38,549 nucleotides of DNA, from positions 20,045,570-20,084,118 of the forward strand of contig NC_057749.1 of assembly GCF_004010195.1 (NCBI RefSeq). Direction: 5' to 3'. This document shows, in pieces, positions 37,693 to 37,907 of this stretch. The notes below the pieces were generated by a model. That model saw nothing but the letters and a program-made list of their open reading frames with translations. It was not told where the DNA came from and searched no databases. Numbering within the stretch: position 1 is the first letter of the stretch; each line of letters opens with the position of its first letter. The stretch comes from Chiloscyllium plagiosum. Taxonomy: Eukaryota. The position numbers and the translations under genes are program-made.

Positions 37693-37907
37693 CGATCACC
37701 TATACGGCACAAGTCAGAAATGTGATGGAATACTCTCCACTTGCCTGGATGGATGCAGCTCCAATAACACTCAAGAAGCCATTCCTGAAGAAGGGCCTGT
37801 GCCCGAAACGTCGAATCTCCCGATCACCTATACGGCACAAGTCAGAAATGTGATGGAATACTCTCCACTTGCCTGGATGGATGCAGCTCCAATAACACTC
37901 AAGAAGC
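37693..37907 (+). repeat. 87-bp exact direct repeat (37693-37779 / 37821-37907) flanking a 41-bp insert
   Basis: cgatcacctatacggcacaag...cactcaagaagc occurs twice, identically. Confidence 0.95.
37781..37816 (+). ncRNA. minimal type I hammerhead ribozyme motif (PLE-derived)
   Basis: attc-CTGAAGA-A-GGGC-CTGT-GCCC-GAAA-CG-TC-gaat. All core nucleotides are present, with a 4-bp stem I, a 4-bp stem II and palindromic ACGT in place of stem III. Confidence 0.8.

What the first reader, a model, noticed from the sequence alone, without database searches (positions are those of the whole stretch)
37693..37907. Ribozyme-only 41-bp insert between two identical 87-bp repeats
Seen: host LINE sequence is duplicated exactly (87 bp). 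The only thing between the copies is cattcctgaagaagggcctgtgcccgaaacgtcgaatctcc, essentially just a hammerhead, and the best-formed one in the window (stem I attc/gaat fully paired). The duplication is about six times longer than the 11-15 bp TSDs of other PLE inserts here, and its identity implies a recent event. Inference: either an extreme PLE-mediated insertion with widely staggered nicks, or templated repair capturing the ribozyme. A repeat-plus-hammerhead unit resembles the seed of a retrozyme or ribozyme satellite.
Basis: partly seen in the sequence, partly recalled or inferred. Interest (0 to 1): 0.7.

Follow-up and report, generated by a model that had tools for sequence, protein, structure and literature searches.

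The report
Tiny ribozyme insert with long duplication
A 41-base piece of an abundant jumping element, consisting of just its hammerhead ribozyme motif, sits between two identical 87-base copies of the host repeat; it looks like an unusually short insertion with an unusually long target duplication rather than a new kind of element.

Summary
An exact 87-bp direct repeat (37693-37779, 37821-37907) flanks 41 bp (37780-37820) inside an old LINE-like fragment.

The 41-mer is not a free-standing ribozyme. It is an internal stretch of a young repeat with Penelope-like-element (PLE) hallmarks. It occurs 14,093 times in this 3.56-Gb genome at up to 2 mismatches.

Both of its ends recur in ordinary inserts of that family:
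- 519 arms start at the same base.
- At least five other inserts with 11-14 bp target-site duplications (TSDs), plus one in a satellite whose TSD I did not determine, have an arm ending at the same CTCC. In two of the five the arm is the same 40-bp ribozyme-only module.

In 29 sampled inserts the TSD never exceeded 18 bp, so 87 bp is a true outlier.

Best reading (0.55): an aberrant PLE insertion, with reverse transcription started at a minor internal site, stopped at the usual 5' stop, and nicks effectively 87 bp apart.

Rivals: repair capture of a PLE fragment (0.25) and assembly artefact (0.12). Public-run contigs could not bridge the junctions.

The "retrozyme seed" idea is not supported. 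There are no multimers, only one ribozyme, and no partner for the dimer this ribozyme type needs. Interest is low to moderate.

The parts
37641..37935 (+). Fragment of an old high-copy LINE-like repeat (host of the event), open frame ...VVHLLPPQSLSITYTAQVRNVMEYSPLAWMDAAPITLKKLEIIQDKA
   Evidence: genome paralogs match window 37641-37779 and 37825-37935 as separate pieces at 84-93% identity (4,619 first-look candidates, 40 scored); frame; in paralog L018 an upstream frame hits RVT_1 at 24.2 bits, below the 29.6 cut-off.
37693..37779 (+). Left copy of the 87-bp duplication
   Evidence: reference copy, 100% identical to the right copy.
37780..37820 (+). 41-bp insert: internal stretch of the PLE-type repeat, equal to its minimal hammerhead motif
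   Evidence: identical to the family consensus. In the parent it is preceded by ...ctctctgct and followed by tgttccctgg... plus about 90 more bases.
37781..37784 (+). Helix I, 5' strand (AUUC), pairs with 37813-37816 (GAAU)
   Evidence: minimum-free-energy structure.
37785..37791 (+). Conserved core CUGAAGA
37793..37804 (+). Helix II hairpin GGGC-CUGU-GCCC
37805..37812 (+). Core GAAA, palindrome ACGU (37808-37811) and GUC; predicted cleavage between 37812 and 37813
   Evidence: Sequence read against the min-HHR description in PMC4209133. Cleavage was not tested.
37821..37907 (+). Right copy of the 87-bp duplication

Best explanation
This is a one-off, aberrant product of the Penelope-like-element (PLE) insertion machinery. 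The steps below are inferred from the anatomy and none was observed directly. A nick in the bottom strand at 37692/37693 (pre-insertion coordinates) primed reverse transcription of RNA of the young PLE-type family. Priming began not at either of the family's two usual internal start sites (about 95 and about 131 nt from the start of the 41-mer) but at a rare site just 3' of the hammerhead (...CUCC). Synthesis ran 41 nt and stopped at the family's commonest 5' stop, the base of helix I (CAUUC). The cDNA was then joined bluntly, with no microhomology, to the top-strand end 87 nt downstream. Fill-in of the 87-nt single strands gave the two identical copies. The long stagger came either from a far-off second nick or from DNA-templated extension from a normally placed second nick. 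The ribozyme is a passenger. It is a lone minimal hammerhead with no partner copy and is not expected to cleave.
For: (1) The 41-mer equals the consensus of a repeat present 14,093 times at up to 2 mismatches. The family shows the PLE hallmarks. It has a min-HHR. It has an optional tail of about 37 bp, so arms end at about 95 or about 131. Inverted 5' copies are common. In 11 of 11 sampled hairpin inserts one arm has the tail and the other lacks it. This matches the tail and two internal RT start sites described for PLEs (PMC11167929 main text read; PMC8557442 passages). (2) 5' end: 519 genome sites have an arm starting at exactly this base with non-parent sequence upstream. A control two bases upstream gives 200, many of them subfamily variants. 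(3) 3' end: with the exact 28-mer core, 9 sites have non-parent sequence after CTCC. Five are internal indel variants. Three are hairpin inserts with a short arm ending at CTCC (L011, L014, L015), with TSDs of 13-14 bp in L011 and L015; L014 lies in a satellite and its TSD was not determined. The ninth is this locus. Of 9 loci read from the older-subfamily search (30 fetched, 437 hits), L038 and L050 also end at CTCC, with 11-12 bp TSDs. In L011 and L038 the arm is the same 40-bp module, ATTCC...CTCC. (4) The flanking duplication has TSD geometry, with the host frame continuous on both sides. (5) There is no other exact copy of the 41-mer in the 38 kb upstream or 0.9 kb downstream, and the longest shared word is 17 nt, which argues against local template switching. 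(6) Long TSDs with retroelement insertions have precedent: a LINE with a median of 900 bp, and 'variable length' TSDs for LINEs and PLEs (PMC9977147 passages).
Against: The 87-bp TSD has no parallel in my sample: 0 of 29 exceed 18 bp. The CTCC end is not clearly commoner than neighbouring positions. A control 6 nt downstream gave 7 hits, of which 2 of 2 examined are true arm ends, 3 look like internal deletions and 2 were not examined. A control 8 nt upstream gave 4 hits, of which 2 of 2 examined are internal insertions and 2 were not examined. Every other CTCC-ending short arm I saw comes with an inverted partner arm, and this one is solo. I did not identify the family's autonomous RT/endonuclease copy: no Pfam hit in the two loci tried. 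No read-level confirmation was possible. Contigs of public runs were swamped by repeats and none listed bridges a junction.
Confidence: 0.55

Rival explanations
1. Repair capture. Two nicks or a staggered break 87 nt apart, of any origin, were repaired by fill-in and end joining. A free 41-nt PLE cDNA or RNA-derived fragment, or a stretch copied in trans from one of the roughly 10^4 copies, was caught at the junction, without target-primed reverse transcription.
For: Both junctions are blunt. The available microhomologies were not used: 'TGT' follows the 41-mer in the parent and precedes the repeat in the host, and 'AAGAAG' is shared at the other side. That fits end joining. Capture of retrotransposon sequences at breaks is documented in mouse zygotes (PMC4516963, seen in a search listing and abstract only). 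Tandem duplications of similar size occur here without PLE involvement: L068 carries a 121-bp host duplication into which an arm inserted separately.
Against: A random captured piece should not have both ends at places where ordinary arms of the family end. A captured PLE cDNA would inherit those ends, however, so this rival shades into the main reading. No template copy lies nearby.
Confidence: 0.25
2. Assembly or polishing artefact. Two overlapping contig ends in a repeat were not merged, and the gap was filled with the most abundant word path in the genome.
For: The 41-mer is the highest-depth stretch of the region in every run laid: summed word depth is about 2.4 million in bin 37772-37802 of X1, against about 7-10 in unique flank. 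No junction-bridging contig was listed. The assembly has 101,977 contigs. No second haplotype copy of the locus exists in the assembly to compare.
Against: There is no N in the window. The junctions are precise and the insert is in one piece. Its two ends coincide with natural arm ends of the family, which an artefact would not be expected to respect.
Confidence: 0.12
3. Seed of a retrozyme or ribozyme satellite. The 128-bp host-plus-hammerhead unit is the start of a tandem array that makes self-cleaving, circularising RNA.
For: Animal non-LTR retrozymes are tandem repeats carrying type I hammerheads and are argued to derive from PLE pLTRs, with consensus lengths of 51-972 bp (bioRxiv 10.64898/2026.07.22.740005, abstract and passages). 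The unit length would fit.
Against: Only 1.7 units and one hammerhead are present. The assembly holds no other copy or multimer. No second hammerhead lies on the same strand within the 1.6 kb before or the 1.6 kb after. Minimal PLE hammerheads showed no cleavage as single motifs (PMC4209133).
Confidence: 0.03

Closest known systems
5'-truncated insertions of Penelope-like elements, with 'tail', internal RT initiation and inverted 5' copies (Craig et al. 2021, PMC8557442; Frangieh et al. 2024, PMC11167929)
   Same: The source sequence is a PLE-type repeat with a min-HHR. Arm ends fall at two sites about 36 nt apart (the tail). Inverted partner arms are common. TSDs are variable. The 5' end of the 41-mer is the family's commonest 5' stop.
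   Different: The 3' end lies about 54 and about 90 nt upstream of the two usual ends. The insert is only 41 bp and solo. The TSD is 87 bp, against 0-18 bp in 29 sampled inserts.
Long target-site duplications with non-LTR retrotransposon insertions (Dualen LINE in Chlamydomonas, PMC9977147)
   Same: The duplicated host sequence flanks both sides of a retroelement insert and is explained by widely spaced nicks.
   Different: The element class differs, and those duplications are much longer (median 900 bp). For PLEs that paper reports only very short insertions (median 128 bp). The passages I read do not mention long duplications for PLEs.
Minimal type I hammerheads of metazoan PLEs (Cervera and de la Pena 2014, PMC4209133)
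   Same: CUGANGA and GAAA cores, a short helix I (4 bp), an unpaired base before helix II, no real helix III, and a palindromic ACGU that could pair between two copies.
   Different: Helix II here is 4 bp, not the 7-8 bp of the Schistosoma examples. Here the motif is cut out of its element and stands alone.
Animal non-LTR retrozymes (Cervera and de la Pena 2020, PMC7229834, listing and abstract only; Li et al. 2026 preprint)
   Same: A hammerhead of PLE origin next to a direct repeat of unit length in the known range.
   Different: Retrozymes are tandem arrays with one hammerhead per unit. Here there is one hammerhead and 1.7 units, and the repeated part is host LINE sequence.

Membership tests
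Hammerhead ribozyme, minimal type I (PLE min-HHR) | Conserved cores CUGANGA and GAAA in the right order, with a GUC-type cleavage triplet | tested here: met
   CTGAAGA 37785-37791, GAAA 37805-37808, GTC 37810-37812.
Hammerhead ribozyme, minimal type I (PLE min-HHR) | Helix II hairpin and open helix I flanking the core | tested here: met
   4-bp helix II with a CUGU loop and a 4-bp helix I. The energy is not better than shuffles (z -0.51).
Hammerhead ribozyme, minimal type I (PLE min-HHR) | Match to a curated hammerhead covariance model | tested here: not met
   no Rfam hammerhead family is reported, at gathering score or at E up to 10. This is expected for a motif without helix III.
Hammerhead ribozyme, minimal type I (PLE min-HHR) | A second copy nearby to form the active dimer | tested here: not met
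   no other hammerhead-like motif on the + strand between window 36140 and 39460. The nearest copies of this type lie at 8613 and 3441.
Hammerhead ribozyme, minimal type I (PLE min-HHR) | Self-cleavage | not testable with these tools
   Needs in vitro transcription of monomer and dimer.
PLE insertion (target-primed product of a Penelope-like element) | Insert sequence derives from a PLE terminal region | tested here: met
   41 of 41 identical to an internal stretch of the family's 3' region.
PLE insertion (target-primed product of a Penelope-like element) | Parent family shows the PLE-specific tail (two alternative 3' ends 30-40 bp apart) and inverted 5' copies | tested here: met
   of 29 arms, 16 end at about 95, 8 at about 131 and 5 elsewhere. 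In 11 of 11 hairpins one arm has the tail and the other does not.
PLE insertion (target-primed product of a Penelope-like element) | Parent family linked to an ORF with a telomerase-like RT and a GIY-YIG endonuclease | tested here: inconclusive
   no Pfam hit upstream of the 41-mer in L002 or L008. Other PLE families in the window give weak hits: GIY-YIG 18.8 bits and RVT_1 26.3 bits, both below cut-off.
PLE insertion (target-primed product of a Penelope-like element) | Insert ends at one of the element's regular 3' ends (RT start sites) | tested here: not met
   The insert ends at position 41, not about 95 or about 131. The same end occurs in six other inserts: L011, L014, L015, L038 and L050 as short arms, and L033 as a longer direct copy whose TSD was not checked. 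Counts at neighbouring control positions are similar.
PLE insertion (target-primed product of a Penelope-like element) | Flanking target-site duplication | tested here: met
   exact 87-bp duplication abutting both ends. The length lies outside the sampled range of 0-18 bp.
Non-LTR retrozyme | Tandem array of units, each with a hammerhead (at least two ribozymes) | tested here: not met
   one hammerhead, 1.7 units, no other copy in the assembly.

The most novel reading that the evidence does not exclude
The roughly 40-nt hammerhead module may be a discrete unit for the PLE machinery. Arms running from the base of helix I to 0-6 nt past the ribozyme recur (this locus, L011, L038, L090). This could reflect a protein- or fold-defined footprint with a cryptic RT start just 3' of the ribozyme. 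When such a start is combined with DNA-templated extension from the second nick, it would plant a bare ribozyme between long direct repeats of host DNA. That could be a route by which host-sequence retrozyme-like units first arise.
Probability: 0.12. Interest if true: 0.5.

Novelty: new member of a known kind. Interest (0 to 1): 0.25.

Why it matters
If real, the locus is a natural record of how far PLE integration can deviate from its norm. It shows an internal start of reverse transcription outside the two known sites, a 41-nt product and an 87-nt stagger. PLE integration is poorly understood, and such outliers constrain models of second-strand cleavage and joining. It has no evident consequence for the host, because it lies in a dead repeat fragment. 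It does not by itself show the birth of a ribozyme satellite.

Tried and rejected
- Read support. One search for runs and one laying of four runs returned only Logan contigs. The host repeat and the PLE piece recruit thousands of contigs, and no listed contig bridges either junction, so the artefact question stays open. No RNA holder was listed.
- Possible empty site. A single contig of organism C (X13) joins 37740 to 37869, skipping exactly 128, at about single-copy depth. It could be the orthologous empty site or a paralogous copy of the host repeat, so I give it no weight.
- Empty allele in the assembly. One search found none. The best other matches are paralogs at 93% identity or less.
- Wider search for CTCC ends in older subfamilies (437 hits). 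It was dominated by subfamily variants, and I read only 9 of the 30 loci fetched.
- Tandem ribozyme modules. They are hinted at by 'goes back' joints, table 5c. One guessed junction pattern gave 0 hits and I dropped the lead.
- L068 looked like a second long duplication beside an arm. On reading, it is a pre-existing 121-bp host tandem with an arm inserted with a 6-7 bp TSD.
- Microhomology-mediated template switching. I rejected it as the joining mode because the available shared words were not used at either junction.
- Earlier notes of this scan. Three look-ups found nothing.
- Further loci. Two hits in each control set therefore remain unread.

Full report
**What is there.** Positions 37693-37779 and 37821-37907 are 87 nt long and identical. 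The bases outside the repeat differ on both sides, so 87 is the full length. Apart from a minisatellite near 11.7 kb, this is the only local direct repeat of 30 bp or more in the window. The window contains no N.

**The host.** The host is a fragment, about 37641-37935, of a high-copy repeat. Its frame reads through both outer junctions. Genome paralogs match the two halves separately at 84-93% identity, and none carries the insert or the duplication (4,619 candidates, 40 scored). In one paralog an upstream frame gives a sub-threshold RVT_1 hit. 'LINE' is therefore reasonable but only weakly tested. The duplication, with 0 differences in 87, is clearly younger than the host copy. By my own arithmetic, zero differences in 87 bp only bounds pairwise divergence below about 3.4% at the 95% level.

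**What the 41-mer is.** It has the parts of a minimal type I hammerhead:
- helix I, AUUC/GAAU
- core CUGAAGA
- one unpaired A
- helix II, GGGC-CUGU-GCCC
- core GAAA
- the palindrome ACGU
- GUC

It folds accordingly, though no better than shuffled sequence. Rfam reports no hammerhead for it, even at E up to 10.

It is not a free-standing element. The same 41-mer, at up to 2 mismatches, occurs 14,093 times in the 3.56-Gb genome. In those copies it is preceded by ...ctctctgct and followed by about 54 more bases ending ...gtttcaac, optionally with a further tail of about 37 bp. The other copies in the window are older variants with 2-3 differences.

**The parent family behaves like a Penelope-like element.** I sampled 29 inserts from the first 30 loci returned by one search.
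- Arms end at about 95 in 16 inserts, at about 131 in 8, and elsewhere in 5.
- Eleven are hairpins, with an inverted arm plus a direct arm. In all 11, one arm carries the tail and the other does not.

This is the published PLE signature: an optional 30-40 bp tail, often at one end only, and inverted 5' copies (PMC8557442, passages). It has been explained by reverse transcription starting at two adjacent internal sites and by nicking and extension of both target strands (PMC11167929, main text). I could not tie the family to an RT/GIY-YIG ORF in the loci I held. Other PLE families in the window give weak GIY-YIG and RVT_1 hits.

**Do the ends of the 41-mer mean anything?**
- 5' end. The genome has 519 sites where an arm begins at exactly this base after non-parent sequence. 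A control boundary two bases upstream gives 200, and many of those are subfamily variants. This is the family's favoured 5' stop.
- 3' end. With the exact 28-base core, 9 sites have non-parent sequence after CTCC. Five are internal indel variants and one is this locus. The other three (L011, L014, L015) are hairpin inserts whose short arm ends at CTCC, with TSDs of 13-14 bp in L011 and L015; L014 lies in a satellite and I did not determine its TSD.
- Older subfamilies. L038 and L050 show the same end with 11-12 bp TSDs (9 of 30 fetched loci read, out of 437 hits).
- The same module. In L011 and L038 the short arm is the same ribozyme-only module, ATTCC...CTCC, 40 bp long.

Evidence against a special site comes from two controls. 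A control boundary 6 nt further on gave 7 hits. Both that I could read (L090, L091) are true short arms with 12-15 bp TSDs. A control 8 nt upstream gave 4 hits, and both read are internal insertions. So CTCC is one of a small cluster of rare ends just past the ribozyme, not a sharp hot spot. All the other short arms of this kind come with an inverted partner arm, and the one in the window is solo.

**The duplication.** In the same 29 inserts, TSDs are 10-18 bp for hairpins (n=11) and 0-15 bp for simple arms (n=18). None exceeds 18 bp. One locus, L068, seemed to offer a second long duplication. On reading, it is a pre-existing 121-bp host tandem into which an arm inserted with a 6-7 bp TSD. This shows that duplications of that size arise here without PLEs.

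**Most likely mechanism (inferred).** A bottom-strand nick at the left edge of the 87-bp stretch primed reverse transcription of family RNA from the rare site ...CUCC. Synthesis stopped 41 nt later at the common stop. The cDNA was joined bluntly to the top-strand end 87 nt downstream, and fill-in duplicated the 87 nt. Neither junction uses the microhomology that was available: 'TGT' on one side and 'AAGAAG' on the other. That fits end joining or template jumping rather than microhomology-mediated switching. No template copy lies within 38 kb upstream or 0.9 kb downstream. The 87-nt stagger may reflect a far-off second nick. It may instead reflect DNA-templated extension from a normally placed second nick in place of the usual RNA-templated partner arm. 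The second option is speculation prompted by the report that a PLE protein extends both strands. Long TSDs with retroelement insertions have precedent (PMC9977147, passages).

**Rivals.**
- Repair capture of a PLE fragment at a staggered break explains the blunt junctions equally well. If the captured piece was a PLE cDNA, this rival is hard to tell apart from the main reading.
- An assembly artefact cannot be excluded. The only read-level tool returned contigs, which were swamped by the two repeat families, and none listed bridges a junction. The coincidence of both insert ends with natural arm ends argues against an artefact.
- The retrozyme-seed idea fails its defining test. There is one hammerhead, 1.7 units and no other copy. 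Minimal PLE hammerheads did not cleave as monomers (PMC4209133). Supplementary figures of that paper were not consulted.

**Verdict.** The thing is best filed as an extreme member of a known kind: a very short, oddly initiated PLE insertion with a very long TSD. It is of modest interest to students of PLE integration. My searches of the paper library turned up no description of PLE inserts with TSDs of this length. Those searches were not exhaustive.

Noticed in passing
window 3326-3532, 8488-8705, 14440-14640: Hairpin-type inserts of older subfamilies of the same repeat: an inverted arm and a direct arm meeting at the hammerhead. By eye, the one at about 3326-3532 has a 13-bp TSD (aaatagatgaata).
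   Followed up: partly
L011, L038, L090, L091 (own genome): Hairpin inserts whose short arm is only the ribozyme module, 40-56 bp. It starts 9 bases before (L091), at (L090) or one base after (L011, L038) the first base of the 41-mer, and ends at its last base or 6 bases beyond. TSDs are normal, 11-15 bp.
   Followed up: partly
window 36150-37626, minus strand: A degenerate PLE copy of another family lies directly left of the host fragment. It has a frame with RVT_1 at 26.3 bits (below cut-off) and a hammerhead with a long helix II at 36193-36223. Other copies of that repeat continue beyond 37626 (loose ends).
   Followed up: partly
window 12815-13482, plus strand: A frame with a weak GIY-YIG hit (18.8 bits, below cut-off) runs into a hammerhead motif at 13452-13482. 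This is a third PLE family, in which the ribozyme overlaps the end of the ORF.
   Followed up: no
window 34182-34254, plus strand: tRNA match (Rfam RF00005, 43.3 bits). I did not check whether it is a gene or a tRNA-derived repeat.
   Followed up: no
window 11652-11951: Minisatellite with units of about 20-21 bp.
   Followed up: no
L068 1425-1805 (own genome): A 121-bp tandem duplication of host sequence (copies 99-100% alike), with a PLE arm inserted in the first unit with a 6-7 bp TSD.
   Followed up: yes
window 37781-37820, as laid (table 5c): Contigs of two runs of the same organism join the 3' part of the ribozyme module back to its 5' part with 1-11 letters between. This hints at tandem ribozyme modules somewhere in the genome. 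One guessed junction pattern found none in the assembly.
   Followed up: partly
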